Shown here: in pieces, positions 15,295-35,638 of the stretch
How the letters are laid out: the number at the start of each line of letters is the position of its first letter
How positions within the stretch are numbered: position 1 is the first letter of the stretch
IMG/VR virus record: IMGVR_UViG_2690315831_000002
DNA length: 37,164 nucleotides
Reading direction: 5' to 3' (one strand)
Source of the DNA: a virus
Lineage: Duplodnaviria; Heunggongvirae; Uroviricota; Caudoviricetes
Notes under the pieces: model-generated
Database searches by the model: none
Seen by the model: only the letters and a program-made list of their open reading frames with translations
Told to the model about the DNA's origin: nothing
Program-made: the position numbers and the translations under genes

Positions 15295-15367
15295 AAAGCA
15301 TATATTTCATGTAAATCTGATATTCTGCCAATGTTGCATGTGCAACTGTTCGTAGATGTAGTAAGGG

Positions 15368-15396: not shown

Positions 15397-15515
15397 TTTC
15401 TGCAATAAAGGTTTTGGGAATGAAGGGGCGGCTCCCAAAAGATAACCGCCAAGTTGGTAACTTCGACTCGATAATTGGTCTGGGACTCCAACCGTGTCGG
15501 CTGAGAGGTCGACGT

Positions 15516-16319: not shown

Positions 16320-16547
16320 CTGCTGGTAATACTCTTAGTCCTTAAAGCATAGTATTTAACCATACATGTAACTCATTGATAAAGATCGTTTTATGCAAGT
16401 TGCATATATTGGTTTTTGAAGGCCATTCGCTTGGTTATAAGATTTTTTAGTTATTTTGAATTGACTGTTTATAACAATATTTCCCATGTAAGTTTTTAAT
16501 CATTAGCGTCCCGGCCTTTCGTCGGCGGCGAAACATTGGCTATTCAT

Positions 16548-16853
16548 ATGCACGAAAAAGAGAGCCTTGCCGGAGCGTTCTGGCTCGTTTTGCTGATCAT
16601 CGCAGGTTGGGGCGGTCTGGTCCGCTACCTGATAGATGTGAAGCAGAGTAAAGCAACGTGGAGTTGGATAAATGCTCTGGCTCAGATAGTGGTATCGGGA
16701 TTCACCGGTGTTATTGGTGGCCTGATCAGTATCGAAAGTGGATTCAGTATTTACATGATTCTCGCGACAGCGGGGATTAGTGGTGCGATGGGTTCGGTTG
16801 CACTGACGTACTTCTGGGAACGACTGACAGGGGTGAAAAATGCAAAATCTTAA
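16548..16853 (+). CDS. Class I holin (three predicted TM helices)
   Basis: It lies directly upstream of endolysin R and overlaps it. The three hydrophobic segments are AFWLVLLIIAGWGGLV, ALAQIVVSGFTGVIGGLISI and IYMILATAGISGAMGSVALTYFW. ATG 16548 is preferred over TTG 16536. Confidence 0.75.
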   Translation: MHEKESLAGAFWLVLLIIAGWGGLVRYLIDVKQSKATWSWINALAQIVVSGFTGVIGGLISIESGFSIYMILATAGISGAMGSVALTYFWERLTGVKNAKS

Positions 16854-17316
16854 TCCTCAGCGTAAAGCTTTCCTCGATATGTTGGCGTGGTCAGAGGGAA
16901 CGGATAACGGGCGACAACCGACACGTAACCACGGTTATGATGTTATTGTTGGTGGTGAACTGTTTACTGATTACTCCGATCATCCTCGCAAACTTGTCAC
17001 GCTAAACCCGAAACTTAAATCAACAGCTGCCGGACGTTATCAGCTTCTTTCCCGTTGGTGGGATGCTTACCGTAAACAGCTTGGTTTGAAAGACTTCTCC
17101 CCCAAAAGCCAGGACGCTGTGGCATTGCAGCAGATTAAAGAGCGTGGCGCTTTACCGATGATTGATCGCGGTGATATTCGTCAGGCAATTGACCGTTGCA
17201 GCAATATCTGGGCTTCACTGCCGGGTGCTGGTTATGGTCAGTTCGAGCATAAGGCTGACAGCCTGATTGCAAAATTCAAAGAAGCAGGCGGAACGGTCAG
17301 AGAGATTGAGGTATGA
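16840..17316 (+). CDS. R: Endolysin R (lambda lytic transglycosylase)
   Basis: 158 aa, near-identical to lambda R ([46 protein letters not shown]...). Confidence 0.95.
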
Positions 17317-17774
17317 GCAGAGTAACCGCGATTATCTCCGCTCTGGTTATCTGCATCATCGTCTGCCTGTCATGGGCTGTTAATCATTACCACGATAACG
17401 CCATTACCTACAAAGCCCAGCGCGACAAAAATGCCAGAGAACTGAAGCTGGCGAACTCGACAATTACTGACATGCAGATGCGTCAGCGTGATGTTGCTGC
17501 GCTCGATGCAAAATACACGAAGGAGTTAGCTGATGCGAAAGCTGAAAATGATGCTCTGCGTGATGATGTTGCCGCTGGTCGTCGTCGGTTGCACATCAAA
17601 GCAGTCTGTCAGTCAGTGCGTGAAGCCACCACCGCCTCCGGCGTGGATAATGCAGCCTCCCCCCGACTGGCAGACACCGCTGAACGGGATTATTTCACCC
17701 TCAGAGAGAGGCTGATTACTATGCAAAAACAACTGGAAGGAACCCAGAAGTATATTAATGAGCAGTGCCGATAG
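17313..17774 (+). CDS. Rz: Spanin inner-membrane subunit Rz
   Basis: 153 aa, lambda Rz-like, with an N-terminal TM segment and a coiled coil. Confidence 0.9.
17533..17715 (+). CDS. Rz1: Spanin outer-membrane lipoprotein Rz1, embedded in Rz in the +1 frame
   Basis: 60 aa with lipobox LVVVGC and a proline-rich region ([16 protein letters not shown]), as in lambda Rz1. Confidence 0.9.
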
Positions 17775-17805
17775 AGCTGCCCATATCGATGGGCAACTCA
17801 TGCAA

Positions 17806-18099
17806 TTATTGTGAGCAATACACACGCGCTTCCAGCGGAGTATAAATGCCTAAAGTAATAAAACCGAGAAATCCATTTACGAATGTTTGCTGGGTTTCTG
17901 TTTTAACAACATTTTCTGCGCCGCCACAAATTTTGGCTGCATCAACAGTTTTCTCCTGTCCAATTCCCGAAACGAAGAAATGATGGGTGATGGTTTCCTT
18001 TGGTGTTACTGCTGTCGGTTTGTTTCCAACAGTAAACGTCTGTTGAGCACATCCTGTAATAAGCATTGCCAGAGCGGCAGAAAACAACATTTTTTTCAT
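17806..18099 (-). CDS. bor: Bor serum-resistance lipoprotein
   Basis: 97 aa from ATG 18099 (MKKMLFSAALAMLITGCAQQTFTVGNKPTAVTPKETITHHFFVSGIGQEK...), lambda Bor with lipobox LITGC. Confidence 0.9.
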   Translation of the reverse strand: MKKMLFSAALAMLITGCAQQTFTVGNKPTAVTPKETITHHFFVSGIGQEKTVDAAKICGGAENVVKTETQQTFVNGFLGFITLGIYTPLEARVYCSQ

Positions 18100-18267
18100 C
18101 TTATTATCCTGCATTGTTAAAAACGGCAGAATCCTATGTGACAACAATTAAACGATAGTTAAATGGATTGATGAAAATTAAAACTATATAGGTGGATGCT
18201 CAGCCTATTGGAGGAGGGGGGGGCACTCAGAATCCTGTGGAATGAAATAAACCGCTCTATCTGTTCA

Positions 18268-18492
18268 TTACCCTTTTAGCAGCGCTGTATCGTCGCCGTA
18301 TTCCCGCATTAACCATGACCGTAGCCCGACGGGGAATTCCTTCTGCGTGAGTGTGCGGGAATAATCAAAAACGATGCACACCGGGTTTTTACCGCGTTTA
18401 TGGTTCGCGGGGGTGTCCCTCATGCTCGCCAGTCCTGTGCGGGGGTGGAAGAAACAGGACGTGTATTCAGGTCTGTGTGACTGTGGTCGCAA
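18268..18492 (-). CDS. Hypothetical ORF in the lambda right-end region
   Basis: 74-aa ORF between bor and cos. No motif recognised, and it may be non-coding. Confidence 0.25.
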   Translation of the reverse strand: MRPQSHRPEYTSCFFHPRTGLASMRDTPANHKRGKNPVCIVFDYSRTLTQKEFPVGLRSWLMREYGDDTALLKG

Positions 18493-18539
18493 GACTTTTG
18501 TCGTTCAGCTATTAAATCCCATTACGAAGTAGACCAGAA

Positions 18540-18760
18540 CGGCCAACGGGTCCTTTCCGGCGATCCGACAGGTTACGGGGCGGCGACCTCGCGGGTTTTC
18601 GCTATTTATGAAAATTTTCCGGTTTAAGGCGTTTCCGTTCTTCTTCGCCGTAACTTAATGTTTTTATTTAAAACACCCCCTGAAAAGAAAGGAAACGACA
18701 GATGCTGAAAACGGGCTTTTTGGCCTCTGTCGTTTCCTTTTTCTGTTTTTGTCCGTGGAA
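18540..18760 (+). other. cos site (cosQ-cosN-cosB); 12-nt cohesive end GGGCGGCGACCT at 18578-18589
   Basis: CGACAGGTTACG|GGGCGGCGACCTCGCGGGTTTTCGCTATTTATGAAAATTTTCCGG matches the joined lambda right and left ends. nu1 follows. Confidence 0.9.
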
Positions 18761-18766
18761 TGAACA

Positions 18767-19286
18767 ATGGAAGTCAACAAAAAGCAGCTGGCTGACATTT
18801 TCGGCGCGAGCATCCGTACCATTCAGAACTGGCAGGAGCAGGGAATGCCCGTTCTGCGAGGCGGTGGCAAGGGTAATGAGGTGCTTTATGATTCTGCCGT
18901 CGTCATAAAATGGTATGCCGAAAGGGATGCTGAAATTGAGAACGAAAAGCTGCGGCGGGAAGTTGAAGAACTGCTGCAGGCCAGCGAGACAGATCTCCAG
19001 CCAGGGACTATTGAGTACGAACGCCATCGACTTACGCGTGCGCAGGCCGACGCACAGGAGCTAAAAAATGCCAGAGACTCCGCTGAAGTGGTGGAAACCG
19101 CATTCTGTACTTTCGTGCTGTCGCGGATCGCAGGTGAAATTGCCAGTATTCTCGACGGGATCCCCCTGTCGGTGCAGCGGCGTTTTCCGGAACTGGAAAA
19201 CCGACATGTTGATTTCCTGAAACGGGATATCATCAAAGCCATGAACAAAGCAGCCGCGCTGGATGAACTGATACCGGGGTTGCTGA

Positions 19287-19312
<26 letters not shown>
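18767..19312 (+). CDS. nu1: Terminase small subunit
   Basis: 181 aa, near-identical to lambda Nu1 (MEVNKKQLADIFGASIRTIQNWQEQGMPV...). Confidence 0.95.
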
Positions 19313-22993
<3,681 letters not shown>

Positions 22994-23013
<20 letters not shown>

Positions 23014-24313
23014 TCTCCCGCATATTGCCAGCATGGCTTTTAATGAGCCGCTGATGCTTGAACCCGCCTATGCGCGGGTTTTCTTTTGTGCGCTTGCAGG
23101 CCAGCTTGGGATCAGTCGCCTGACGGATGCAGTATCCGGCGACAGCCTGACTGCCGGAGAGGCACCCGCGGCGCTGGCGTTATCCGGTGATGATGACGGA
23201 CCACGACAGGCCCGCAGTTATCAGGTCATGAACGGCATCGCCGTGCTGCCGGTGTCCGGTACGCTGGTCAGCCGGACGCGGGCGCTGCAGCCGTATTCGG
23301 GAATGACCGGTTACAACGGCATTATCGCTCGTCTGCAACAGGCTGCCAGCGATCCGATGGTGGACGGCATTCTGCTCGATATGGACACACCGGGCGGGAT
23401 GGTGGCGGGAGCATTTGACTGTGCTGACATCATCGCCCGTGTGCGTGACATAAAGCCGGTATGGGCGCTGGCCAACGACATGAACTGCAGTGCAGGTCAG
23501 CTGCTTGCCAGCGCCGCCTCCCGGCGTCTGGTCACGCAGACCGCCCGGACAGGCTCCATCGGCGTCATGATGGCTCACAGTAATTACGGTGCTGCGCTGG
23601 AGAAACAGGGCGTGGAAATCACGCTGATTTACAGCGGCAGCCATAAGGTGGATGGCAACCCCTACAGCCATCTACCGGATGATGTCCGGGAAACACTGCA
23701 GTCCCGGATGGATGCAACCCGCCGGATGTTTGCACAGAAGGTGTCGGCATATACCGGCCTGTCCGTGCAGGCTGTGCTGGATACCGAGGCTGCAGTGTAC
23801 AGCGGTCAGGAGGCCATTGATGCCGGACTGGCTGATGAACTTGTCAACAGCACCGATGCGATCACCGTTATGCGTGATGCACTGGATGCACGTAAATCCC
23901 GTCTCTCAGGAGGGCGAATGACCAAAGAGACTCAATCAACAACTGTTTCAGCCACTGCTTCGCAGGCTGACGTTACTGGCGTGGTGCAAGCGACGGAGGG
24001 CGAGAACGCCAGCGCTGCGCAGCCGGACGTGAACGCGCAGATCACCGCAGCGGTTGCGGCAGAAAACAGTCGCATTATGGGGATCCTCAACTGTGAGGAG
24101 GCTCACGGACGCGAAGAACAGGCACGCGTGCTGGCCGAAACCCCCGGTATGACCGTGGAAACGGCCCGCCGTATTCTGGCTGCAGCACCACAGAGTGCAC
24201 AGGCGCGCAGTGACACTGCGCTGGATCGTCTGATGCAGGGGGCACCGGCACCGCTGGCTGCAGGTAACCCGGCATCTGATGCCGTTAACGATTTGCTGAA
24301 CACACCAGTGTAA
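22994..24313 (+). CDS. C: Head maturation protease C, with scaffold Nu3 nested in frame
   Basis: GTG 22994 gives 439 aa (VTAELRNLPHIASMAFNEPLMLEPAYARVFF...), matching lambda gpC. The track ORF's upstream extension overlaps B. Confidence 0.9.
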
Positions 24314-24322
24314 GGGATGTTT

Positions 24323-24655
24323 ATGACGAGCAAAGAAACCTTTACCCATTACCAGCCGCTGGGCAACAGTGACCCGGCACATACGGCAACCGCGCCCGGC
24401 GGATTGAGTGCGAAAGCGCCTGCAATGACCCCGCTGATGCTGGACACCTCCACCCGTAAGCTGGTTGCGTGGGATGGCACCACCGACGGTACTGCCGTTG
24501 GCATTCTGGCGGTTGATGCTGACCAGACCAGCACCACGCTGACGTTCTACAAGTCCGGCACGTTCCGTTATGAGGATGTGCTCTGGCCGGAGGCTGCCAG
24601 CGACGAGACGAAAAAACGGACCGCGTTTGCCGGAACGGCAATCAGCATCGTTTAA
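24323..24655 (+). CDS. D: Head decoration protein D
   Basis: 110 aa from ATG 24323 ([40 protein letters not shown]...), lambda gpD. Confidence 0.95.
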
Positions 24656-24676
24656 CCTTACCCTTCATCACTAAAG

Positions 24677-24697
24677 GCCGCCTGTGCGGCTTTTTTT
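24677..24697 (+). terminator. D-E intergenic stem-loop (GCCGC-ctgt-GCGGC followed by T7)
   Basis: The hairpin and T-run are read directly from the sequence. The same structure sits between D and E in lambda. Confidence 0.5.
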
Positions 24698-24710
24698 ACG
24701 GGATTTTTTT

Positions 24711-25403
24711 ATGTCGATGTACACAACCGCCCAGCTGCTGGCGGCAAATGAGCAGAAATTTAAGTTTGATCCGCTGTTTCTGCGTCTCTTTTTCCGTGAG
24801 AGCTATCCCTTCACCACGGAGAAAGTCTATCTCTCACAAATTCCGGGACTGGTATCCGGTGCGCCTGTATGGGCGTCTGAACATCAGTCCACGCTGAGCG
24901 CGGGGTATCTTCATGCCCGGACGAACGTTCCCAGCAGTGATGATCTGAACGGGATTAACGTGAAATACCGTTATGAGTTTACGGACACACTGGGGATGGT
25001 GACGTCGTTCAGCTATGCAGGAGACAAGAATCGCCAGCTTACCCGTTACAGCGATACCCGCTGGCATGAAGATTCCGTGCGTAACCGCTGGTTCAGCGTG
25101 ATGGCGGGGCCGTCTGTACGCGTGAATGAATGGTTCAGCGCGTATGCGATGGCAGGCGTGGCTTACAGCCGTGTGTCGACTTTTTCCGGGGATTATCTCC
25201 GCGTAACTGACAACAAGGGAAAAACGCACGACGTGCTGACCGGAAGTGATGACGCTCGCCACAGTAACACCTCTCTGGCGTGGGGAGCTGGCGTGCAGTT
25301 TAACCCGACCGAATCCGTGGCCGTTGATGTCGCTTATGAAGGCTCCGGCAGTGGCAACTGGCGCACTGACGGGTTCATCGTGGGTGTCGGTTATAAGTTC
25401 TGA
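24711..25403 (+). pseudogene. In-frame chimera: major capsid E codons 1-48 fused to a Lom/Ail-family outer-membrane protein that lacks most of its signal peptide
   Basis: MSMYTTAQLLAANEQKFKFDPLFLRLFFRESYPFTTEKVYLSQIPGLV is the lambda E N-terminus. From 24855 the ORF reads SGAPVWASEHQSTLSAGYLH...GINVKYRYEFTD...WRTDGFIVGVGYKF, a Lom-family beta-barrel. The lambda sequence ...CTGGTAAACATGGCG is replaced by ...CTGGTATCCGGTGCG. Confidence 0.85.
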
Positions 25404-25430
25404 TTAGCCAGGTAACACAGTGTTATGACA

Positions 25431-25456
25431 GCCCGCCGGTTCAGGCGGGCTTTTTT
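25431..25456 (+). terminator. Rho-independent terminator after lom
   Basis: GCCCGCC-ggttca-GGCGGGC is followed by T6. Confidence 0.8.
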
Positions 25457-25467
25457 GTGGGGTGAAT

Positions 25468-27012
25468 ATGGCAGTAAAGATTTCAGGTGTACTGAAAGAC
25501 GGTGCAGGTAAACCGGTACAGAACTGCACAATCCAGCTGAAAGCAAAACGTAACAGCACCACGGTGGTGGTGAACACGCTGGCCTCAGAAAATCCGGATG
25601 AAGCCGGGCGTTACAGCATGGACGTTGAGTACGGTCAGTACAGCGTTATTCTGTTGGTGGAAGGATTCCCGCCGTCACATGCCGGGACCATCACCGTGTA
25701 TGAAGATTCTCAACCCGGTACGCTGAATGATTTTCTCGGTGCCATGACGGAGGATGATGCCCGTCCGGAGGCACTGCGCCGTTTTGAACTGATGGTGGAA
25801 GAGGTGGCGCGTAACGCGTCCGCAGTGGCACAGAACACGGCAGCCGCGAAGAAGTCAGCCAGCGATGCCGGCACATCAGCCCGTGAGGCGGCAACCCATG
25901 CGACTGATGCTGCAGGCTCAGCACGCGCAGCCAGCACGTCAGCCGGACAGGCCGCTTCGTCGGCTCAGTCAGCGTCTTCCAGCGCAGGAACGGCATCAAC
26001 AAAGGCCACTGAAGCATCAAAAAGTGCTGCCGCTGCAGAGTCCTCAAAAAGCGCGGCGGCCACCAGTGCCGGTGCGGCGAAAACGTCAGAAACGAATGCT
26101 GCAGTGTCACAAAAATCTGCAGCTACTTCTGCATCCACCGCGACCACGAAAGCGTCAGAAGCTGCCACCTCAGCCCGGGATGCGGCGGCCTCAAAAGAGG
26201 TAGCGAAATCATCAGAAACGAACGCATCATCAAGTGCCAGTAGTGCAGCTTCCTCGGCAACGGCGGCAGGAAATTCCGCGAAGGCCGCAAAAACGTCTGA
26301 GACGAATGCGGATAACAGCGCACAGGCGGCAGCAGACTCACAAACTGCATCGGCAAACTCCGCGACAGCAGCCAAAAAATCAGAAACCAACGCGAAAAAT
26401 AGCGAGGCAGCAGCAAAGAGCAGCGAAACAAACGCTAAAGCCAGCGAAACTAATGCTAAATCCAGTGAAACAAACGCGGCGAAATCTGCGGCGGACGCAC
26501 TTAATTATCGCAACCAGGCCCAGGGTATTGTTGGTACTAACATCGGTTTGGGATCATCACCGCGTGATTGCTCTGACATCTCAGGAAATCCATCAGGTTA
26601 TATTGGCTTTATGCGCATCATGGCTGATGCAACAGGTTTCCCGTCTATTGCATCCGGTGAAAGCAGTCTTACGGGGTTTATTAGTCAGGTAGATGGAACT
26701 CCAGCGTATACAGGTGTATTTCAGGGATGGACTACTCGCTCGCTTTATACCTATCGCTGGAGTCCGACAACAGGCCCGCAATGGACACGCCACGCTCGCA
26801 AAAATGAAGTGGACCGTCTTGACCAATGGAATAGCGAAACATGGTTATATAACCATGATAAATCCATGCGCCTGGGTTTAACCGGATCAACATGGGGGTG
26901 TTACAGCGACACACAAAAAAATGGATACCACTTGATGTTTCTCATGGTGGCACTGGCGCAAATAGCCTTGATGACGCCAAAACTAATTTGCAAATCCCTG
27001 AGGGTGGGTTAA
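25468..27012 (+). CDS. stf: Side tail fibre Stf, N-terminal portion (frame interrupted near 26915-26921)
   Basis: MAVKISGVLKDG.GKPVQNCTIQLKA.RNSTTVVVNT...DEAGRYSMDVEYGQYSVIL matches the lambda Stf N-terminus. An Ala/Ser-rich rod follows. Confidence 0.85.
   Translation: MAVKISGVLKDGAGKPVQNCTIQLKAKRNSTTVVVNTLASENPDEAGRYSMDVEYGQYSVILLVEGFPPSHAGTITVYEDSQPGTLNDFLGAMTEDDARPEALRRFELMVEEVARNASAVAQNTAAAKKSASDAGTSAREAATHATDAAGSARAASTSAGQAASSAQSASSSAGTASTKATEASKSAAAAESSKSAAATSAGAAKTSETNAAVSQKSAATSASTATTKASEAATSARDAAASKEVAKSSETNASSSASSAASSATAAGNSAKAAKTSETNADNSAQAAADSQTASANSATAAKKSETNAKNSEAAAKSSETNAKASETNAKSSETNAAKSAADALNYRNQAQGIVGTNIGLGSSPRDCSDISGNPSGYIGFMRIMADATGFPSIASGESSLTGFISQVDGTPAYTGVFQGWTTRSLYTYRWSPTTGPQWTRHARKNEVDRLDQWNSETWLYNHDKSMRLGLTGSTWGCYSDTQKNGYHLMFLMVALAQIALMTPKLICKSLRVG
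26083..26480 (+). repeat. Coding repeats in the Stf rod: SETNA motif about 7 times, with tandem 7-aa units K(A/S)SETNA at 26374-26480
   Basis: Protein segments AKTSETNA, AKSSETNA, AKTSETNA and KKSETNAKNSEAAAKSSETNAKASETNAKSSETNAAK. The corresponding DNA repeats are imperfect. Confidence 0.6.
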
Positions 27013-29069
27013 CAAAAGCGATGACCATTAATGCACCTGGTGGTGCAGTGGATGGCAAATACTACCCTGTCATAATAGACACATCCGCAATGGAAGGTTA
27101 CGGCAACCTGACATGTCCTATTGATATAAAAACAGCAGGACGTTCATCATCAGACCCGCTTAATAGCAATACATTTAGTGGATATTTTCGATGCGGTGGC
27201 TGGAGTGACTCCAGAGATATAGCTTGCGGCTCATTTGTTGCCTATGACAAAAATGAGCTAGGGATACTTTGCCTTAAAGTATCGCAGAAAGACTATCCGC
27301 AATATGTAGCGTTCTATATCCATAAAGCCGCTTTCCCGATATTATTGCAAACAGGCTATAAAGCACGAGTCATTGTACCAACAGAAGATTATATAATCGG
27401 CACAAGCGGCGTTAAATATAAATTTGGTGTATCAACGTCAACAGAGGGTAACGCCGAGAACGCTGTTAAAAATGCTCTCGATTTCACTGGCGGTGAAAGC
27501 GGGTTTTATAGCAACCTGCCGTTCCGGCAAGGATACGCCTATAATGTCGCATTAACAAACGGGATGGTTCTTGATAAGAATTTTGTCTTAACCGCTCCAG
27601 TATTTATGAACAATGGCGAGGTTAAAGCAACAAAATCTTTCACCGCGTACGGTACGGATGTTTCAAACAGAACATTTGTTTCTCAAGGATTACAATCCGA
27701 AGGAGGTCCGGTTGTCGATCAAACTGAACTAAGGGCTGGTAACGGGCAAGGTGAAATTGTTGTCAGGGACATAAATAATTCAGGGAACAGCAAGTTCTTT
27801 AATTTTAACCTTGATGGTACCTTCAGTTCTTATCAGGGATTGGTTGTTCACACAGGGCAAAACTGGAGCACTCAACATACAGAGAATGTAAATAAGTTTA
27901 AGCCAATAGCAGGGAGCGCAGGCGGTCCTGACGGAACAATGGTTGTTGGCGGGTTCCATGCTCAATTTAGCGGTAATTACGTCACACAATTCGCCGGTCG
28001 CAACTCCAAATTTTGGGCAAGAAGCTTTGAGGCTGGGGTTGATAAGGGATGGAAACGACTATTAACAGTAGACGATCTCAATTCATCTACCGATCTTGCT
28101 GTCAGGTCATTAACCACATCTAACCCGGTAAAATCTGGCGGAGGGCGAATTGATGTCCTTGGAAGCACGTCAGACTATAGCAAAATGGATTGCTTTGTAC
28201 GTGGGTTTGATAGCACCGGTAATTCTCTCGCGTGGGCGTTGGGTTCATCAGTCGGCGTAAGTAAGATGCTGTCGCTAAAAAATTTCTTTAGCGGAGCTGA
28301 GATACTGCTAAATGGTAATGACGGCGCGGTTCAACTCAAAACAGGTGCTGTTAACGGGGCTACAGCGCAGACGCTCACTATCAACAAGAATGAGGTTAAC
28401 TCAACCGTTGATTTAACCCTTACAAAGCAATCAGGGACTGGTAATCGTTTTGTTTTACAGAACTCAGGTAATGCAGAACTACCGTTTTCTGTCAGGGTGT
28501 GGGGTTCCAGTACTCGACAAAACGTTTTTGAGGTTGGAACGTCTGCTGCGTATCTGTTTTATGCGCAAAAAACGTCAGCAGGCCAGTTGTTTGATGTAAA
28601 TGGCGCTATTAATTGCACAACGCTGAATCAGTCATCAGACCGCGACCTTAAAGACGATATTCTCGTTATCAGCGACGCGACGAAAGCAATCCGTAAAATG
28701 AACGGATACACCTACACGCTCAAGGAAAACGGGATGCCTTATGCTGGCGTTATTGCACAGGAAGTAATGGAGGCGATACCAGAAGCTGTGGGATCGTTTA
28801 CTCATTATGGTGAAGAGTTGCAAGGTCCGACCGTTGACGGCAACGAGCTACGCGAAGAAACTCGCTATCTTAATGTTGACTACTCCGCCGTGACGGGTTT
28901 ACTTGTTCAGGTCGCCCGTGAAACAGATGATCGCGTTACCGCGCTGGAAGAGGAAAACACAACGCTACGTCAAAATCTGGCAACAGCAGGCACCCGGATC
29001 AGCACTCTGGAAAATCAGGTAAGCGAACTGGTTGCACTTGTCCGGCAGTTAACAGGAAGCGAACATTGA
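26892..29069 (+). CDS. Side tail fibre, C-terminal portion in an alternative frame; ends in an intramolecular-chaperone (peptidase S74-like) domain
   Basis: WIPLDVSHGGTGANSLDDAKTNLQI is a typical fibre linker motif. The C-terminus (SSDRDLKDDI...MNGYTYTLKENG...AGVIAQEV...NVDYSAVTGLLVQ plus a coiled coil) resembles endosialidase-type autocleaving chaperone domains. Confidence 0.75.
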   Translation: MGVLQRHTKKWIPLDVSHGGTGANSLDDAKTNLQIPEGGLTKAMTINAPGGAVDGKYYPVIIDTSAMEGYGNLTCPIDIKTAGRSSSDPLNSNTFSGYFRCGGWSDSRDIACGSFVAYDKNELGILCLKVSQKDYPQYVAFYIHKAAFPILLQTGYKARVIVPTEDYIIGTSGVKYKFGVSTSTEGNAENAVKNALDFTGGESGFYSNLPFRQGYAYNVALTNGMVLDKNFVLTAPVFMNNGEVKATKSFTAYGTDVSNRTFVSQGLQSEGGPVVDQTELRAGNGQGEIVVRDINNSGNSKFFNFNLDGTFSSYQGLVVHTGQNWSTQHTENVNKFKPIAGSAGGPDGTMVVGGFHAQFSGNYVTQFAGRNSKFWARSFEAGVDKGWKRLLTVDDLNSSTDLAVRSLTTSNPVKSGGGRIDVLGSTSDYSKMDCFVRGFDSTGNSLAWALGSSVGVSKMLSLKNFFSGAEILLNGNDGAVQLKTGAVNGATAQTLTINKNEVNSTVDLTLTKQSGTGNRFVLQNSGNAELPFSVRVWGSSTRQNVFEVGTSAAYLFYAQKTSAGQLFDVNGAINCTTLNQSSDRDLKDDILVISDATKAIRKMNGYTYTLKENGMPYAGVIAQEVMEAIPEAVGSFTHYGEELQGPTVDGNELREETRYLNVDYSAVTGLLVQVARETDDRVTALEEENTTLRQNLATAGTRISTLENQVSELVALVRQLTGSEH

Positions 29070-29240
29070 TATCCTTCAAGCCCTGAAGGAGGCTGTTCCT
29101 GGTACGTTCAGACTGTTGCTGAGCTGGAGATCGCAACGGAGGAAGAGAAAGCGTTTCTGGCCGCATGGAAAACATATCGGGTATTGCTGAACCGTGTTGA
29201 TACAGTAAACCCCGTCTGGCCTCCACCTTCGAAGCGATAG
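29070..29240 (+). pseudogene. tfa: Tail-fibre assembly protein (Tfa) 3' remnant
   Basis: The frame from 29112 reads [31 protein letters not shown]...WPPP*, matching the conserved Tfa C-terminus ([26 protein letters not shown]). No N-terminal two-thirds is present. Confidence 0.7.
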
Positions 29241-29544
29241 CCCAGCAACTCCTAAATAGCTGCGCATAATACCGCTACACCTGCCGTTTTACTGACATTT
29301 GGAATATTGCGTGAGGGCAACATATCGAGGGGCAGATACAGCTCGGTCAAATAGAAAAACAGCCCCACTATTTACCATGCAATAGCTGGTCAAAAGGAGA
29401 GCACTATTCCGCTCCGCGTAGTATTTTGTGTTTATAGTGATAACTTAGGTAATGCTTAGTCACTAAGATACTTTGCTATTGGAGAGCGATTTATAATGTG
29501 GGCGCAACAGATTTTTACTATTGCGCCACTTGCTCTTGTGAGTA

Positions 29545-30633
29545 CTATTCGCTATAAGTTAATGTTGGTTTTGAAAGTCTTTTGGATATTGTTTTTCCGA
29601 TATTAATGAATGGAGTTTCAATATATTTATAAATAAAGAATGATAAGAACAAGCTAAGAGCAATAATGAATGAAAACTTAGAGAACCCAGGTTTTTCATA
29701 AAGCGGAATGAAATCCTTAAAATTAATTAAAAATAGCATTACTATCGCATGGGATAAATACAGAGAGTAAGAGATATCACCTAGCTTACTGAGTATTTTA
29801 TTTTCCCTTAATCCGAAGTTAACTTCATAAAGTAAAACTCCCGTAATTATGGAGGCTGCCCACAATCCGAAGTTTAAAGGGCCATGACCAAATCTGAATT
29901 GATAAAAATATGAGCAAACACCAAATGAAACCAAAAGGAATGATATCGCCTTTGCGTTTTTTATATATTTAAATTTTCTGTGTATTATATACAGAAACAT
30001 CCCATAAACGAATTCTAACAGCATGGGTGATGACATTAAGTTTAGAAAGCCAATATGCCAATGACCTGTATCACCAATCGTAAACTTACTTGATAGAGAA
30101 AGGCTGTTGGAAAATTTCAACTGTATGAGAAGTAGCGGGACTATCAATGCAATAACTGATATTAATAATCTGTTTTTATGACTCAGCGATATTGCAAGCA
30201 TAAAAATGAAATAAAAATAGACTTCAAAGGTTAATGTCCATGCTGGATAAAGCACGTTGTATCCGAAGAATGGCGCTTCTGAATAATAGTCCAGGTGAAG
30301 CAGAAACAATGAACGCAATAATTCACTTTCGGTGAAGACTGGGTTCAATAAAAAGAATAAGATTGTGCAAATGAAAAATACAGGGTAAATCCTGAAAAAA
30401 CGCCTGGTCATAAAGTTAATAGGGGAATTTGTTTCTTTTTTTTGACTCGATAACATTATTATAAATCCACTTATAATAAAAAACAGATCAACCCCAAAAC
30501 CACCACTAATAAACAATAAATCACCTAGATCTTTTTGTGCGTAAACTTCATTTAGGTATTGTTTATTGTGATATGCAACAACGAGTAATGCTGCTACACC
30601 TCGCAAATAGTGAATTGATTTTACCTTCTTCAT
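29545..30633 (-). CDS. Integral-membrane acyltransferase (Acyl_transf_3 family; OafA/Oac-like, probable O-antigen/surface glycan acetylase)
   Basis: 362 aa with ~10 hydrophobic segments. The N-terminal signature IHYLRGVAALLVVAYH and the DLFFIISGF motif are present. It is very low in GC. Confidence 0.8.
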   Translation of the reverse strand: MKKVKSIHYLRGVAALLVVAYHNKQYLNEVYAQKDLGDLLFISGGFGVDLFFIISGFIIMLSSQKKETNSPINFMTRRFFRIYPVFFICTILFFLLNPVFTESELLRSLFLLHLDYYSEAPFFGYNVLYPAWTLTFEVYFYFIFMLAISLSHKNRLLISVIALIVPLLLIQLKFSNSLSLSSKFTIGDTGHWHIGFLNLMSSPMLLEFVYGMFLYIIHRKFKYIKNAKAISFLLVSFGVCSYFYQFRFGHGPLNFGLWAASIITGVLLYEVNFGLRENKILSKLGDISYSLYLSHAIVMLFLINFKDFIPLYEKPGFSKFSFIIALSLFLSFFIYKYIETPFINIGKTISKRLSKPTLTYSE

Positions 30634-30843
30634 TTTTATATAATCACTGTTCCAATTTTTTTTATTTTACAAACAATTCTATCTAGCTCATTAGTACACA
30701 AAGTCAGATTGGTAGCAATAAAAAAACAAGATATGTGATGACATGGCGCGGGGCTCAGAACCACTCGTGTATTTTCGCCACTGGCTATGACTGGCTGCAC
30801 CTGCAAGATCTGCCATTTGTGTGCCAGTATACCCAAGCTCTGA

Positions 30844-31350
30844 CTTTATGTTTACCAGATCCTCTGGAGTGCCGGGGAGTATAATCGTTGATTAATCGAA
30901 TCTGCAACTATTTCAGAACGACCTAGGTTAAAGTGCGCTCTGCAGTCTCTTATATAAGGTGATACTTTAATTGTCTGGAAACTGGACAGGTTAGGAAGGA
31001 GCAGGAAACATCTTATTATACTTACCGAGTAGCTGCGGGTAAGGGGGGGGGGGTTCCGTAGCCTGACAGGTAACATTGACACGTCAACATCGATGGTTTT
31101 TTTTATTTTTCCATGTGATGGAGCCCTGGTTGAAATGAAGCGTGAACTGATTGATGACTGAACAAAAGTTGGACTGGAAGATGCTCGCGCACAGGGAGGA
31201 ATTGGTGGACGTCGTCCTAAACTTACATCAGAACAATGGGCGCAGGCCGGGCGATTAATTGCATCAAAAGTCCCGCGTCAGAAGGTGGCGATCATCTATG
31301 ATATTGGTGTATCGACTTTGTATAAGAGGTTTCCAGCCAGGATTATATAA
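30844..31350 (+). pseudogene. pin: Pin/Hin/Gin-family serine invertase pseudogene
   Basis: A single frame reads GDTLIVWKLDRLGRS...FRSLT.NIDTS...GALVEMKRELI...GGIGGRRPKLTSEQWAQAGRLIA...STLYKRFP. It carries in-frame stops at 30889 and at three later positions. About 20 N-terminal codons, including the catalytic Ser, are absent. A G11 run lies at 31043-31053. Confidence 0.8.
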
Positions 31351-31673
31351 AACTGCAGACACGCCGTATGCAAGACGTGCTGCGGTTGGCTGATGCACTT
31401 TCGAGAGTGTATGTATTGAATAATTTCCAACCGTCATTAATTTTATTTATTTTTTGCATGAGAGGATTTGAACCTCCGAGCCTCGACACCTTATGACAAC
31501 GCGATATTCCCTTGATGACCGCTATGCGCCAAAATAACCAATTGATAAATAAGTTGATTTTAATTAGTTGGAAGCAAGTCAGGTCAAATTCAGCATGCCG
31601 CTCTCTGTATCGGGTAGTTAAATTTTTCTATAACTGATAGTAATATGTTAAAACTCACACAGATAAATTATCA

Positions 31674-33656
31674 TTGCTCAACAAGTATAATGGAGTTCCC
31701 GTGGATACAGCAGAACATGATGGCAAATTTGCTTGGGCTAGTTTTTATGAGGCTTTTGCCAACGCGTTACTGACTTGGCGAAATCGTAGAGATGAATTAG
31801 TCAAAGGTATTCATCTAATTGCCTCAGGTGTGGAAGGAATGTCCCATCTGCAGGACAAATCTATTATGGGAGAGATCTTTCCCTTAAAAGACATTTGTCC
31901 GTTTACTACTATGGGCTTGTTCAATCGTAACTTGACCGACAGCAATCGCAAAATTATTGCTGCCAAGCTAGCGAATTTGTTGGGCGTGAACGAACCGATT
32001 CCTGACTCCTTTGCCGGAATCCCGCTGTTGAATAACCAAAAATCTTGGTTCTTTGGTTATGAAAAGTCACGCGACCCTAATGACATTGAATGCTTGTGGG
32101 AAATGTTCTCGCAGGCAATGACCTTTGCGGATAACCAGAATACTAACTCTGCAGACTTCACTGCCGCATATGACATCGCTTCTACAGTAATGAATGTCGG
32201 TTGGAATCTCACCATGGGGTTGTACTGGACCCGTCCTTGGTTCTACCCTACTTTAGATAGCCAGTCGCAGTATTACATTCAGACAGTGTTAAACATTAAG
32301 ATCATTAAAAACGGGGCAAAAGGTCGCTGTAGTGGACAAAGTTACCTGAGTCTTATGCGGGCGCTGAACGAGGTCTTTACCCAACCAAACTATCCGGTTC
32401 ATTCTTTCCCAGAACTTTCTTTATCAGCGTGGAATACAGATCTTAGCCAGTCTAAAGATGAGGTGGCAAATAGAACGTGGAAAGCCTCTTTACTGAATAA
32501 AATTAAGGCGTTATGCCTGAAAAAAAATGGCCCTTATTTCACTGCTTCGGAGTTGGAAGAAAACTACTTGGACGTATTCAAGGTAGAGCATCCTGAGAGC
32601 AAAACAGTTACAAGCTCAATCTACTTTTATCTACAGAAACTATGCAATGATGATGAGTTAAAGTCCCTTGAGTCCGGAAATTATGAATACCTGAATTTTG
32701 AGAAAAACGAATCCCAGACGATAACTGAGGAAACTGTCGAAGAGAGTGCGCCGTTGCCAAAACTCACTCACGTTCCTTATGACATCAGTCATCTGGTGCA
32801 GGATGGCTGTTTCTTGGAAGAGGCTAAGATCCAACTCACACTTCAGCGCCTGATCGACAAGAAAAACCTGATATTACAAGGACCACCCGGAACTGGAAAA
32901 ACCTGGTTAGCGCGACGTTTGGCGTACTGCTTGATGGGAGAAAAAGCACCTGAGCGTATTAGCGCGGTGCAATTTCACCCGAACCTCTCTTACGAAGACT
33001 TTATTCGCGGCTGGCGTCCAGGTAAAGAAGGGCAATTGACGCTAATTGATGGACCTTTTGTAAATGCAATCAAAACTGCAGTCAATAATCCTACCTCGAA
33101 ATATGTGGTGATAATTGAAGAGATTAATCGTGGCAATCCGGCGCAAATCTTCGGTGAAACACTCACGTTGATGGAAGCAGATAAACGCACGCCGACTGAG
33201 GCATTATCTCTTTCCTATCCTAAAAATGATGATGAAAAAATATACATTCCTGAGAATCTATATATCATCGGTACGATGAATATTGCAGACCGCTCACTCG
33301 CACTACTTGACCTAGCGCTGCGCCGTCGTTTCGCGTTTATCGATCTAAAGCCAGCTTTTAATGACGCGTGGAGAAACTGGGTAAATTATAATTACGCAAT
33401 TGATTTTGACATGTTAGCATTCATCAAATCTCGACTGACGGTACTTAACGATATGCTGGCAAAAGATGTTACCTTAGGACCACAGTTTTGTATCGGTCAC
33501 AGCTATGTCACCCCAGCTATCGGCCAAAAAATCAACGATGCCCAGGCTTGGTATGAACAAGTCGTTGATACAGAGATCTGCCCTTTGCTCGCCGAATATT
33601 GGTTCGATGCTCCAAATAAAGTCGATGAAGCCAGAAAAGTGTTATTAGCAAAATGA
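31674..33656 (+). CDS. McrB-family AAA+ GTPase subunit of a type IV (modification-dependent) restriction system, with a ~390-aa unassigned N-terminal domain
   Basis: Motifs are Walker A LQGPPGTGKTW, the McrB signature VVIIEEINRGNPAQIFGE (compare EcoKMcrB DEINRANLSKVFGE) and IIGTMNIADRSLALLDLALRRRFAF. The start is TTG 31674 or, more likely, GTG 31701, which is preceded by GGAG at a 5-nt spacing. Confidence 0.85.
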   Translation: MLNKYNGVPVDTAEHDGKFAWASFYEAFANALLTWRNRRDELVKGIHLIASGVEGMSHLQDKSIMGEIFPLKDICPFTTMGLFNRNLTDSNRKIIAAKLANLLGVNEPIPDSFAGIPLLNNQKSWFFGYEKSRDPNDIECLWEMFSQAMTFADNQNTNSADFTAAYDIASTVMNVGWNLTMGLYWTRPWFYPTLDSQSQYYIQTVLNIKIIKNGAKGRCSGQSYLSLMRALNEVFTQPNYPVHSFPELSLSAWNTDLSQSKDEVANRTWKASLLNKIKALCLKKNGPYFTASELEENYLDVFKVEHPESKTVTSSIYFYLQKLCNDDELKSLESGNYEYLNFEKNESQTITEETVEESAPLPKLTHVPYDISHLVQDGCFLEEAKIQLTLQRLIDKKNLILQGPPGTGKTWLARRLAYCLMGEKAPERISAVQFHPNLSYEDFIRGWRPGKEGQLTLIDGPFVNAIKTAVNNPTSKYVVIIEEINRGNPAQIFGETLTLMEADKRTPTEALSLSYPKNDDEKIYIPENLYIIGTMNIADRSLALLDLALRRRFAFIDLKPAFNDAWRNWVNYNYAIDFDMLAFIKSRLTVLNDMLAKDVTLGPQFCIGHSYVTPAIGQKINDAQAWYEQVVDTEICPLLAEYWFDAPNKVDEARKVLLAK

Positions 33657-34774
33657 CGACAATAACCGGGAGTGAGCAACATACAGCATCACGTATTCCC
33701 ATGCGAAATATCTGGATGCTGATGCTGTACGCTTCAGATCTGTTTCGTCAGTTAGGGCGCAATCAGATCGCAGTAGAAGATAACCCAGCAGAAATCCCCG
33801 ACCTGGTGGCGACAATCCTCCTTCATGAGATTACGCTGCGCCGACGTCGCAATTTAAATATGGGATACCAAACTTGTCATGCGGCCCTGAACCGGGTGAG
33901 AGGGCGCATTGACATACTGTATACTGCCAGTCATCAACTACTGGAACGGGGACAGGTTGCCTGCCATTTTCAAGACATAACCCTCAACACCCCCCGAAAT
34001 CGCTATGTTCGCTGTGCGTTAGAACGTCTGGCCTCAATCATAGTGAAACCGTCTTTGGCGGCAGATTGCCATTTTATGGCAATATCACTTCGCCGTGAGG
34101 GGATAAATGGAGGATATCCTGCCCCCCACGAATTACCCTCAGTGTGGCGTTTTGGACGCCATGATGCCGCAGATAAACCGATGGTCGATGCCGCACGATT
34201 AGCTTTTGAACTGCTGATGCCGACCGAAGATCAAGGCCAATATCTTTTACCTGCGCCCTCAAATAACCTTTACTGGATGAGAAGACTATTTGAAAAAGGT
34301 ATCGCTGGCTTATATCGTGTACACCTTGCCAAAACAACTTGGCAGGTCTCTGCAGGGAAAGAGCTGAAATGGGCGTTGAGCGATCAAAGTGCAGGTAGTG
34401 CAGAGATTTTCCCGACAATGAAGTCAGACATTATTCTGGAACACAAGACTGCCCAGCGGCGTATTATTATCGATACCAAATTTAATTCGATTCTGACAAA
34501 GGGTTGGCATCGGGAGCAATCACTACGTAATGGCTATATTTATCAGCTATATACCTACCTTAGAACACAGGAGAACAAGACGGATCCGCTTTCGCTCAAT
34601 GCCGCTGGTCTTCTACTTCATCCAGCTGTTGGCTATATGCTTAATGAGTATGTTGTCACTCAGGGACATAAGATCCATTTTGCTACAGTAGATATGACGG
34701 TAGATGCTAAAGCAATTAAAAAACAATTGCTGGCAATAGCCCATGATTGTGCAGGAGTCGCGGTTGATGACTAA
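33653..34774 (+). CDS. McrC-family nuclease subunit (PD-(D/E)xK)
   Basis: 373 aa with a 4-nt overlap with the McrB-like gene. The C-terminal motif SDIILEHK...RIIIDTKFN fits the McrC D...(D/E)xK catalytic core. Confidence 0.8.
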   Translation: MTTITGSEQHTASRIPMRNIWMLMLYASDLFRQLGRNQIAVEDNPAEIPDLVATILLHEITLRRRRNLNMGYQTCHAALNRVRGRIDILYTASHQLLERGQVACHFQDITLNTPRNRYVRCALERLASIIVKPSLAADCHFMAISLRREGINGGYPAPHELPSVWRFGRHDAADKPMVDAARLAFELLMPTEDQGQYLLPAPSNNLYWMRRLFEKGIAGLYRVHLAKTTWQVSAGKELKWALSDQSAGSAEIFPTMKSDIILEHKTAQRRIIIDTKFNSILTKGWHREQSLRNGYIYQLYTYLRTQENKTDPLSLNAAGLLLHPAVGYMLNEYVVTQGHKIHFATVDMTVDAKAIKKQLLAIAHDCAGVAVDD

Positions 34775-35253
34775 CCATCCTATAAGGCACTGGCTGTAAT
34801 ATAATCATTAGTTTCAATTAAGTAGCTGTTATCCGTGCTTAGTCATCATATGACGCACCACGGTCTAATTTTCCTGCTCATACATTGATATATCCTTGTC
34901 GAGCCCGGAAAGTCGCAGTCCACTATTAGGTATACCGATTGCCAGCACCAAAAGCTTCTTTGTAATTATTATATCGGGGAATGCCTATTTTTTAGTGACA
35001 ATATCAGATAGCAAATAATAAGCGGTGCCGGTAATGGATGTTATGTTTAATGTATAGACACAGCCATCATAAAATAAACGTCTGTTGTTCGCTCATAACC
35101 GACATTTATCTCAGTTATGGAAGATAATTATGTATGCAGATAATGGGGCAGACAGTCGTGGAGTAAACAAGGTTTTGCACTGCTTGGCGGCATCGTTATC
35201 TTATTTTTAATTATGTGCCTCTTAACATAAGTTGGGACAAAACAGAGACACAT

Positions 35254-35285
35254 AAGGTCTCACAAAGGTCTGCAAGGCCTCACAT
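35254..35285 (+). repeat. Three tandem 10-11-bp direct repeats (AAGGTCTCACA / AAGGTCTGCA / AAGGCCTCACA)
   Basis: Read directly from the sequence. They lie ~190-220 bp phage-side of the icd junction in AT-rich non-coding DNA. Confidence 0.6.
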
Positions 35286-35473
35286 GTATTGAGGTGTTAA
35301 TAAAATGTAGACTTGTAATTTGGATATAAATGGTAGAGAAAACCTTTCCCCAAAATAAAAACGAACGTCAATGAAATCAAACGGTTGAATAAAGTTGATT
35401 TTGGCTAATAAAAAAACAATAAAATAATTTTTATCATTAAATATCAATGACTTGAACTTAATGTTTTTATATA

Positions 35474-35638
35474 CTGTTACGCCATATGGGCTGGACTGAA
35501 GCCGCAGACCTGATTGTTAAAGGTATGGAAGGCGCAATCAATGCGAAGACCGTAACCTATGACTTCGAGCGTCTGATGGAAGGCGCTAAACTGCTGAAAT
35601 GTTCAGAATTTGGTGATGCGATCATCAAGAACATGTAA
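35474..35638 (+). pseudogene. icd: Displaced 3' end of isocitrate dehydrogenase gene icd (attR side)
   Basis: It translates as [54 protein letters not shown], the Icd C-terminus. There is no upstream icd sequence, and unrelated AT-rich DNA precedes it. Confidence 0.9.

What the first reader, a model, noticed from the sequence alone, without database searches (positions are those of the whole stretch)
31674..34774. McrBC-type restriction pair with an unassigned ~390-aa specificity domain at the attR end, the e14 mcrA niche
Seen in sequence:
- The AAA+ part of the 660-aa protein carries the diagnostic McrB motifs GPPGTGKT, EEINRGNPAQIFGE and MNIADRSLALLDLALRRRF.
- The overlapping downstream gene carries the McrC D...IDTKF nuclease core.
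- The N-terminal ~390 aa do not resemble the EcoKMcrB DNA-binding domain as I recall it, so the modified base or sequence recognised is unknown.

Established knowledge: in E. coli K-12 the e14 element, integrated at the same icd site, carries the type IV enzyme McrA at the equivalent end next to the icd remnant. The same niche therefore appears to be recurrently filled with modification-dependent restriction.
Basis: partly seen in the sequence, partly recalled or inferred. Interest (0 to 1): 0.5.

Follow-up and report, generated by a model that had tools for sequence, protein, structure and literature searches.

The report
Prophage McrBC restriction pair, uncharacterised reader
A defective phage-21/e14-type prophage in E. 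coli carries, exactly where K-12's e14 carries mcrA, an intact McrB/McrC-type restriction enzyme pair whose DNA-recognition end is not the known methylcytosine reader. It is instead a widespread domain of unknown function (DUF8425) plus a DpnI-like winged helix, an architecture noted in the literature but never tested.

Summary
Two intact, overlapping genes encode an McrB-type AAA+ GTPase and an McrC nuclease.

- **Conserved parts.** The McrB C-terminal 280 aa match EcoKMcrB (E 4e-77). McrC passes NCBI's McrC equivalog cut-off and keeps its D…D-x-K catalytic residues.
- **N-terminal region.** It does not align to the EcoKMcrB reader. It is two domains, not one:
  - aa 17-256 is Pfam DUF8425. 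It has 2420 cluster representatives, is almost always fused to McrB-type AAA_5, and was followed by McrC in 9 of 9 contexts.
- **Prior art.** This "NTD-wH-NTPase + McrC" class was named in 2024 (PMC11037411) and left uncharacterised.
- **Selection.** All domains are under purifying selection (dN/dS 0.10-0.35).
- **Occurrence.** The pair is in 305 of 5426 complete E. coli genomes.
- **Position.** It replaces e14's mcrA cassette precisely, between the pin 3' end and icdC. That slot is a general cargo hotspot (also an AAA+HNH pair, sitABCD, ompT), not a restriction-only niche.
- **Lead.** DUF8425 weakly but consistently resembles HhH-GPD DNA glycosylases. This is unproven.

Verdict: a real, ordinary-looking member of a catalogued but untested McrBC subclass, with unknown target.

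The parts
31363..35471 (+). Cargo cassette that replaces the e14 mcrA cassette, bounded by the pin-like recombinase remnant and the icd duplicate
   Evidence: blastn of the window against K-12 e14: homology to the pinE 3' end stops at 31362 and resumes at 35472. e14 order is pinE-mcrA-icdC; here it is pin pseudogene, AAA ATPase, mcrC, icd remnant.
31701..33656 (+). mcrB-like gene, 651 aa from the GTG (the ORF is open from the TTG at 31674, 660 aa)
   Evidence: ORF. GGAG 5 nt before the GTG. RefSeq start. Relatives are 651 aa. GTG conserved in Pectobacterium; dN/dS 0.15 overall.
31722..32441 (+). DUF8425 domain (aa 17-256 of the 660-aa ORF): mostly helical, function unknown, with a nearly invariant Asp at aa 195
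32529..32693 (+). Winged-helix domain of DpnI_C type (aa ~286-340); recognition helix VTSSIYFYLQKLCN
32805..33635 (+). McrB-type AAA+ GTPase core plus lid (aa 378-654): Walker A G402-T409, Walker B E482-E483, N536-I-A-D539, R550-R552
   Evidence: 6hz4_A / 6ut6_A EcoKMcrB, E 4e-77. AAA_5 E 3.5e-27. NCBIfam McrB model positions 176-452. McrB_lid PF28529 on the 99%-identical P0001. dN/dS 0.10.
33653..34774 (+). mcrC, 373 aa, start overlapping the mcrB stop (ATGA); PD-(D/E)xK residues D259, D274, K276
   Evidence: NCBIfam McrC equivalog 355.6 bits against a cut-off of 338. PF10117 E 5e-21. 6hz4_M E 3e-15 with METDITI/IVDAKY aligned to MKSDIIL/IIDTKF. 87% identical to Pectobacterium McrC from residue 1. 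dN/dS 0.16.
35234..35471 (+). Conserved ~240-bp phage-21-type attachment-site arm just before the icd duplicate
   Evidence: Shared by about 1466 E. coli genomes whatever the cargo, and by 27 phage records including phage 21 M61865.
35472..35638 (+). icd 3' duplicate (icdC-type remnant) marking attR
   Evidence: 95.6% identical to the K-12 icdC-iraM region from 35472 onwards. Annotated as a partial isocitrate dehydrogenase. ORF 35486-35638.

Best explanation
This is a functional two-gene McrBC-type defence nuclease carried as cargo by a defective phage-21/e14-type prophage.

By analogy with EcoKMcrBC (established knowledge), the 651-aa subunit forms GTP-dependent AAA+ rings, and McrC binds them, stimulates GTP hydrolysis and cuts DNA with its PD-(D/E)xK site. 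What differs is how DNA is chosen. The methylcytosine-flipping DUF3578 domain is replaced by DUF8425 followed by a DpnI-like winged helix.

I infer that these two domains together select the target, which is foreign DNA carrying a mark that E. coli's own DNA lacks. That mark is not Dam G6mATC.

Shown: gene integrity, family membership of the motor and the nuclease, domain composition, purifying selection, strict McrC linkage, and position in the prophage.
For: Motor and nuclease:
- The motor aligns to EcoKMcrB (E 4e-77) with Walker A, N-x-x-D and the Arg cluster intact.
- McrC is above the curated McrC cut-off, and its catalytic D..D.K aligns with EcoKMcrC.
- mcrB precedes mcrC with a conserved ATGA overlap.

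Selection and spread:
- dN/dS against Pectobacterium is 0.17 (DUF8425), 0.35 (winged helix), 0.10 (AAA+) and 0.16 (McrC).
- 305 of 5426 complete E. coli genomes carry the pair at >=99% identity.

Family behaviour:
- DUF8425 is fused to AAA_5 in 51 of 55 long family members.
- It is followed by a PF10117 McrC gene in 9 of 9 contexts read, one of them a degenerate 109-aa remnant. None has a neighbouring DNA methyltransferase, as expected for type IV.

Winged helix:
- The fold is DpnI-like.
- DpnI pocket residues E228, K229, R231 and Q232 (PMC3424567) correspond here to S, S, Y and F. This fits residence in a Dam+ host.

Position: it occupies the slot that holds the type IV enzyme McrA in e14.
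Against: - No experiment exists for any member of this subclass. The only reported attempt was a failed purification (PMC11037411).
- Walker B is E-E rather than D-E. This is the majority state in the clade, 105 of 151 members.
- The E. coli allele alone has R->C and F->S at two winged-helix positions conserved in every other relative and in DpnI. That domain may be decaying.
- DUF8425 is about as conserved across phyla as the motor: 47-60% identity to non-enterobacterial members. This is unusual for a fast-evolving specificity module and allows a non-reader role.
- PADLOC models did not recognise McrC, and scored the ATPase only as a generic restriction-enzyme ATPase.
Confidence: 0.65

Rival explanations
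1. N6-methyladenine-dependent McrBC. The DpnI-type winged helix is the reader and senses fully methylated 6mApT, as shown for other winged-helix fusion nucleases, and DUF8425 is an accessory.
For: The winged helix is the top structural match to DpnI. Relatives hit Pfam DpnI_C and 4esj by sequence. Winged-helix fusions to HNH, GIY-YIG and PD-(D/E)XK nucleases are 6mA-dependent (PMC11037411).
Against: - E. coli is Dam+ (established knowledge), so a G6mATC or 6mApT reader would attack its own chromosome.
- DpnI's pocket and base-contact residues are replaced (S, S, Y, F in place of E228, K229, R231, Q232). In the enterobacterial clade the A-R-Q/N triplet of non-enterobacterial relatives has become S/Y-F/Y/H-Y.
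- This copy has no sequence-level DpnI_C hit.
- Most DUF8425-McrB proteins have no winged helix at all.
Confidence: 0.1
2. DUF8425 is a diverged HhH-GPD (DNA-glycosylase-fold) module that flips out and inspects, or even excises, a modified base. The McrB ring and McrC convert that recognition into a double-strand break.
For: - Foldseek: nearly all of the top 50 PDB hits to the DUF8425 model are HhH-GPD glycosylases from several families (SsOgg, MjOgg, Tm1821, OGG1, MutY).
- Local hhalign against a MutY profile gives a co-linear 147-column alignment, pairwise P 0.014. It pairs the (G/N)-V-G hairpin with MutY's GVG, and F-P-T-L-D with MutY's F-P-I-L-D (D138). That Asp is D in 93% and E in 5% of 254 members and sits at a helix N-cap after a helix-hairpin-helix.
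- HhH-GPD enzymes such as plant DME/ROS1 read 5-methylcytosine (established knowledge).
Against: - There is no HMM-level similarity to Pfam HhH-GPD or to PDB glycosylases.
- The GVG hairpin is only about 50-75% conserved and reads N-V-G in E. coli.
- The MutY profile was shallow (Neff 1.7).
Confidence: 0.25
3. Not modification-dependent. DUF8425 senses something other than a DNA mark (a phage protein, a DNA structure or RNA), so the system acts as an abortive-infection or structure-triggered nuclease, as proposed for CoCoNuT-type McrBC relatives.
For: - DUF8425 is as conserved as the motor across phyla and is tied to AAA_5 rather than shuffled among nucleases.
- Accessory domains vary around it: a ~160-aa N-terminal extension, DpnI_C, Mrr_N, TPR.
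- McrBC relatives with non-DNA targets have been proposed (PMC11090510).
Against: - The motor carries the N-x-x-D signature of the classical branch (PMC11090510).
- The accessory domains that do occur (DpnI_C, Mrr_N) are DNA-modification readers.
- Neighbours include Mrr-type type IV enzymes.
Confidence: 0.12
4. An inactive relic riding in a decaying prophage.
For: The prophage is defective: Q, ybcN and the tail fibre are frameshifted and the pin gene is a remnant. The E. coli allele has two unique substitutions at conserved winged-helix positions. One strain has an IS3 in place of the pair.
Against: Both ORFs are intact and all catalytic motifs are present. dN/dS is 0.10-0.35. 289 genomes hold at least 80% of the pair at >=99% identity.
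Confidence: 0.08

Closest known systems
EcoKMcrBC (E. coli K-12 type IV, GTP-dependent restriction enzyme)
   Same: - Two-gene operon with mcrB before mcrC and overlapping stop/start.
- The AAA+ GTPase core and lid align over ~275 residues (E 4e-77), with Walker A, N-x-x-D and the Arg cluster.
- McrC has the aligned PD-(D/E)xK residues.
   Different: - The N-terminal DUF3578/ADAM 5mC-flipping domain is absent, replaced by DUF8425 plus a winged helix.
- Walker B is E-E, not D-E.
- McrC is far more diverged than the motor (E 3e-15).
- It lies in a prophage at icd rather than in the immigration control region.
'NTD-wH-NTPase' + McrC-like systems (Helbrecht et al. 2024, PMC11037411)
   Same: [quoted passage not shown] Relatives of this protein carry a clear DpnI_C domain.
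   Different: That paper gives no accession I could match to this protein and reports no activity. The E. coli winged helix is too diverged for a sequence hit and lacks DpnI's pocket residues.
R.DpnI (type IIM, G6mATC-dependent)
   Different: There is no DpnI catalytic domain. Methyl-pocket and base-contact residues are not conserved, and the host is Dam+.
EcoKMcrA in e14
   Same: The same chromosomal slot (between pin and icdC at attR of an icd-integrated lambdoid element) and the same broad class, type IV. Similar frequency in E. coli: 340 against 305 genomes.
   Different: McrA is an unrelated single-chain HNH enzyme with a different reader domain.
TgMcrB (YTH), LlaJI.R1 (B3-like) and other McrB homologues with alternative N-terminal readers
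   Same: The principle is the same: a conserved McrB motor and a swapped N-terminal DNA-recognition module (established knowledge; cited in PMC11037411 and PMC12707154).
   Different: DUF8425 is mostly helical and has no significant similarity to PUA/YTH/EVE, B3 or DUF3578 folds.

Membership tests
McrBC (type IV, GTP-dependent) | McrB-type AAA+ core with Walker A, Walker B and the N-x-x-D GTP-specificity signature | tested here: met
   GPPGTGKT, IIEEINR and N536-I-A-D539 align with EcoKMcrB (E 4e-77). Walker B is E-E, the majority state in this clade.
McrBC (type IV, GTP-dependent) | McrC partner with an N-terminal McrB-binding domain and a PD-(D/E)xK nuclease | tested here: met
   NCBIfam McrC equivalog 355.6 bits against a cut-off of 338. 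PF10117. D259, D274 and K276 align with EcoKMcrC catalytic residues.
McrBC (type IV, GTP-dependent) | Operon with mcrB upstream of mcrC and no cognate methyltransferase | tested here: met
   ATGA overlap. No DNA methyltransferase is annotated in the prophage, nor next to relatives in 9 contexts.
McrBC (type IV, GTP-dependent) | GTP-dependent cleavage of modified DNA | not testable with these tools
   Needs biochemistry or phage and plasmid challenge.
EcoKMcrB equivalog (5mC-specific McrB) | N-terminal DUF3578/ADAM base-flipping domain; full-length match to NCBIfam NF008457 | tested here: not met
   265.5 bits against a cut-off of 637, covering only model positions 176-452. No PF12102 hit. PDB full-length McrB aligns only from residue 174.
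NTD-wH-NTPase / McrC class (PMC11037411) | Unknown N-terminal domain + DpnI-like winged helix + McrB-like NTPase, paired with McrC | tested here: met
DpnI-type 6mA-reading winged helix | Recognition-helix residues that form the methyl pockets and contact GATC (E228, K229, R231, Q232, Q235) | tested here: not met
   The equivalents are S314, S315, Y317, F318 and Q321, so only the last is kept. There is no Pfam DpnI_C hit for this copy.
HhH-GPD DNA glycosylase superfamily (for DUF8425) | Helix-hairpin-helix followed by a Gly/Pro-rich loop and a conserved Asp; significant fold or profile similarity | tested here: inconclusive

The most novel reading that the evidence does not exclude
DUF8425 is a highly diverged HhH-GPD (DNA-glycosylase-fold) base-flipping module. 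This would make it the first McrBC subclass in which a glycosylase-derived domain, possibly still catalytic through its conserved Asp, reads a modified base (for example a modified purine) and hands the DNA to a GTP-driven nuclease. The E. coli prophage copy would be a tractable model for about 2400 such protein clusters.
Probability: 0.22. Interest if true: 0.7.

Novelty: new member of a known kind. Interest (0 to 1): 0.4.

Why it matters
McrBC is the textbook GTP-dependent restriction enzyme, yet only a few of its alternative readers have known targets. This pair puts an untested, very widespread subclass (DUF8425-McrB, 2420 cluster representatives) into ordinary E. coli, in 305 of 5426 complete genomes, where the genetics is easy.

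Finding its target would do three things:
- Assign a function to a large DUF.
- Show which phage or plasmid DNA marks natural E. coli populations police in addition to 5mC and hmC.
- Show whether a DpnI-type winged helix can be retuned away from Dam sites.

It also documents the pin-to-attR junction of icd-integrated prophages as a swap site for defence and fitness cargo.

Tried and rejected
- **Local Pfam, NCBIfam and PADLOC** on the N-terminal 375 aa, whole and split. No family was found, even at E <= 10. The local Pfam copy predates DUF8425.
- **phmmer and profile hmmsearch against PDB sequences.** Nothing for DUF8425. Nothing for the E. coli winged helix alone.
- **AFDB50 fold search.** The library was not available.
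- **Pfam scan of 66 short DUF8425 proteins at E <= 10**, looking for HhH-GPD. No such hit. DUF6932 appeared weakly in 8 members and was not followed up.
- **hhalign against single Nth, MutY and AlkA sequences.** Not significant. Global-mode hhalign gave nothing.
- **Genome scan for MutY relatives** to deepen the glycosylase profile. It returned only sequences at least 77% identical, so the profile stayed shallow.
- **Pfam on the ~160-aa N-terminal extension of relatives.** No hit.
- **ADP-ribosylglycohydrolase remnant downstream of mcrC in the window.** tblastn found none.
- **Promoter and terminator scans of the cassette.** Counts were close to the shuffled expectation, so they were not used.
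- **Literature searches** for the RefSeq accessions and for 'DUF8425'. No papers.
- **Restriction-only niche.** Rejected after reading five other occupants of the slot.
Full report
**1. What is there**

The window is a lambdoid prophage integrated in icd. It is 99.9% identical to E. coli A35, from the integrase gene to ycgX.

ORFs 31674-33656 and 33653-34774 on the + strand are intact. The larger product has:
- a Pfam AAA_5 domain (E 3.5e-27);
- an alignment to EcoKMcrB structures 6hz4/6ut6 over aa 375-652 (E about 1e-76);
- a match to NCBIfam's McrB model only over positions 176-452, scoring 265 bits against a cut-off of 637.

The smaller product reaches NCBIfam's McrC equivalog cut-off (355.6 bits against 338) and Pfam PF10117. 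It aligns to EcoKMcrC, with METDITI/IVDAKY opposite MKSDIIL/IIDTKF.

**2. Gene boundaries**

The McrB-like gene most likely starts at the GTG at 31701, giving 651 aa:
- a GGAG lies 5 nt upstream;
- RefSeq uses this start;
- the Pectobacterium orthologue starts with the same GTG;
- the close relatives are 651 aa.

The ATGA overlap is conserved in Pectobacterium, where the gene is called as overlapping. The 16 codons upstream of RefSeq's start are conserved, with synonymous changes and an in-frame 3-nt indel. They also align with the N-terminus of the McrC model.

**3. The N-terminal region is two domains**

Relatives of this protein hit Pfam DpnI_C (E 1e-12) and the DpnI chain directly (E 1e-5 and 2e-4). 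Others carry an Mrr_N winged helix instead. The E. coli copy gives no sequence-level hit.

DpnI's methyl pockets are lined by E228, K229, R231 and Q232, with Q235 nearby (PMC3424567). Via the alignment of relatives to DpnI and a pattern-anchored comparison of the recognition helices, the equivalents here are S314, S315, Y317, F318 and Q321.

Non-enterobacterial relatives share A-R-Q/N at three of these positions. All enterobacterial ones have S/Y-F/Y/H-Y. The E. coli allele alone also has R->C and F->S at two positions conserved in every other relative and in DpnI.

**4. DUF8425**

The first ~250 aa carry the precomputed Pfam family PF28527, which the collection labels DUF8425. PF28529 is McrB_lid. 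The local Pfam copy lacks both, which is why direct scans were empty.

Modelled alone, the domain is very confident (pLDDT 92, pTM 0.91) and mostly helical.

A profile of the domain finds 2420 cluster representatives in 1.84 billion (886 at E <= 1e-30). Of 55 long members:
- 51 carry AAA_5;
- none had a recognised nuclease domain among the 25 families listed;
- a few add Mrr_N or TPR.

In 9 of 9 genomic contexts the next gene is a PF10117 McrC, degenerate in one. No DNA methyltransferase is adjacent.

Many relatives have a further ~160-aa N-terminal extension that E. coli lacks. It has no Pfam match.

**5. Literature**

Helbrecht et al. [quoted passage not shown] They report one failed purification and no activity data.

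No paper in the library mentions DUF8425 or the RefSeq accessions. The class is catalogued but untested.

**6. Is it functional?**

| Region | dN/dS against the Pectobacterium orthologue |
|---|---|
| DUF8425 | 0.17 |
| Winged-helix core | 0.35 |
| AAA+ and lid | 0.10 |
| McrC | 0.16 |

The pair is present at >=99% identity in 305 of 5426 complete E. coli genomes, always chromosomal. Walker B is E-E rather than D-E, which is the commoner state in the clade (105 of 151).

**7. What DUF8425 might be**

- Almost all of Foldseek's top 50 hits are Ogg, OGG1 or MutY.
- The model has helix 150-160, a hairpin, then helix 169-177, followed by a Pro-rich loop and an Asp at the N-cap of the next helix.
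- Local hhalign against a shallow MutY profile gives a co-linear 147-column alignment (pairwise P 0.014, probability 3%). It pairs (G/N)-V-G with MutY's GVG, and F-P-T-L-D with F-P-I-L-D (D138). That Asp is D in 93% and E in 5% of 254 members.
- HMM-level searches see nothing.

I treat this as a lead, not a finding.

**8. The niche**

K-12 e14 runs pinE-mcrA-icdC-iraM. Here a pin-like pseudogene is followed by the McrBC pair, about 700 bp of non-coding DNA, the icd remnant and iraM.

Homology to e14 ends 12 bp after the pin stop and resumes at icdC. The cassettes are therefore exact positional replacements.

The last ~240 bp before icdC are shared by about 1466 genomes and by phage-21-type phages. 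The McrBC cassette itself is in none of 50,697 phage records.

Five other occupants of the slot were read:

| Strain | Cargo next to icdC |
|---|---|
| STK77-E | AAA ATPase + 'retron system putative HNH endonuclease' |
| Es_ST80_L1_NDM_10_2017 | sitABCD |
| E41-1 | sitABCD |
| O157:H7 F3113 | ompT, a hydrolase and an acetyltransferase |
| PEC148 | an IS3 where the McrBC pair should be |

mcrA is in 340 genomes. The slot is a cargo hotspot that sometimes holds defence systems, including two unrelated type IV enzymes.

**9. Mechanism and verdict**

The best-supported reading (0.65) is a working McrBC-type, GTP-dependent nuclease whose targeting end is DUF8425 plus a retuned winged helix. It would act on foreign DNA bearing a mark other than Dam methylation. 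The rivals and their weights:

| Reading | Weight |
|---|---|
| DUF8425 is a glycosylase-fold reader | 0.25 |
| The trigger is not a DNA modification | 0.12 |
| The winged helix reads 6mA | 0.10 |
| Inactive relic | 0.08 |

The glycosylase-fold reading would refine the best explanation rather than replace it, so these weights are not exclusive. The target is unknown and cannot be deduced with these tools.

This is a real, intact member of a known but uncharacterised McrBC subclass. It is moderately interesting, mainly as a tractable E. coli entry point to a large DUF.

Noticed in passing
window 5382-6983 (-), 10614-12247 (+), 15515-16318 (-): The same prophage carries other defence-type cargo in the near-identical strain A35: a SIR2 family protein in a 29-33% GC patch, a 'phosphoribosyltransferase-like anti-phage protein' + 'NADAR family anti-phage protein' pair, and a DUF3800 protein. 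Coordinates were transferred from the A35 annotation.
   Followed up: no
window 17805-18098 (-), 29545-30633 (-): The serum-survival lipoprotein gene iss and an Acyl_transf_3 acyltransferase (E 2.6e-34) are further morons in the late region.
   Followed up: no
window ~13100-31350: The prophage is defective. ybcN, Q and the tail-fibre gene are frameshifted, the pin-like recombinase is a remnant with an internal stop, and lom and the tail fibre follow the head decoration gene directly, with no major capsid or tail genes between them.
   Followed up: no
window 32643-32645 and 32664-32666 (aa C324 and S331 of the 660-aa ORF): The E. coli allele (cluster P0001, 1100 member sequences) has Cys and Ser where every other relative and DpnI have Arg and Phe in the winged helix: LQKLCNDDELKSL against LQKLRNDDELKFL. 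This may mean the domain is decaying or has been retuned.
   Followed up: partly
relatives P0021, P0023, P0027, P0032 and many others, aa 1-160: Most DUF8425-McrB proteins outside Enterobacterales have an extra ~160-aa N-terminal extension (consensus ...CWFVGA...GIWENG...GDRIAIKS...VSVMAIKAIG...REWYF...). It has no Pfam hit and is absent from the E. coli protein.
   Followed up: partly
L012 11366-12295; L009 11088-11300: An ADP-ribosylglycohydrolase gene (PF03747) lies immediately downstream of McrC in two unrelated contexts, as a fragment in one of them. No remnant of it is present in the window.
   Followed up: partly
L015 3948-4703; plasmid hits H69-H71: DUF8425 also occurs as a stand-alone 251-aa gene just upstream of a DUF8425-McrB gene. 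In Bacteroidales plasmids, DNA annotated as 'FRG domain-containing protein' is 29% identical to aa 7-195 of the tblastn query, which starts at the GTG at 31701.
   Followed up: no
L005 2712-4701 (E. coli STK77-E): In the same slot next to icdC this strain has an AAA family ATPase plus a 'retron system putative HNH endonuclease', another candidate defence pair.
   Followed up: no
window 33701 (RefSeq mcrC start) against 33653: RefSeq annotates mcrC 16 codons shorter than comparative evidence supports.
   Followed up: yes
window 34775-35233: About 460 bp of AT-rich non-coding DNA between mcrC and the conserved att arm travels only with this cassette: 301 genomes cover at least 80% of the 697-bp interval 34775-35471. 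Its content was not examined.
   Followed up: no
alignment A5 members: Pfam DUF6932 matched 8 of 66 short DUF8425-containing proteins weakly (best E 0.0019). The region matched was not determined.
   Followed up: no
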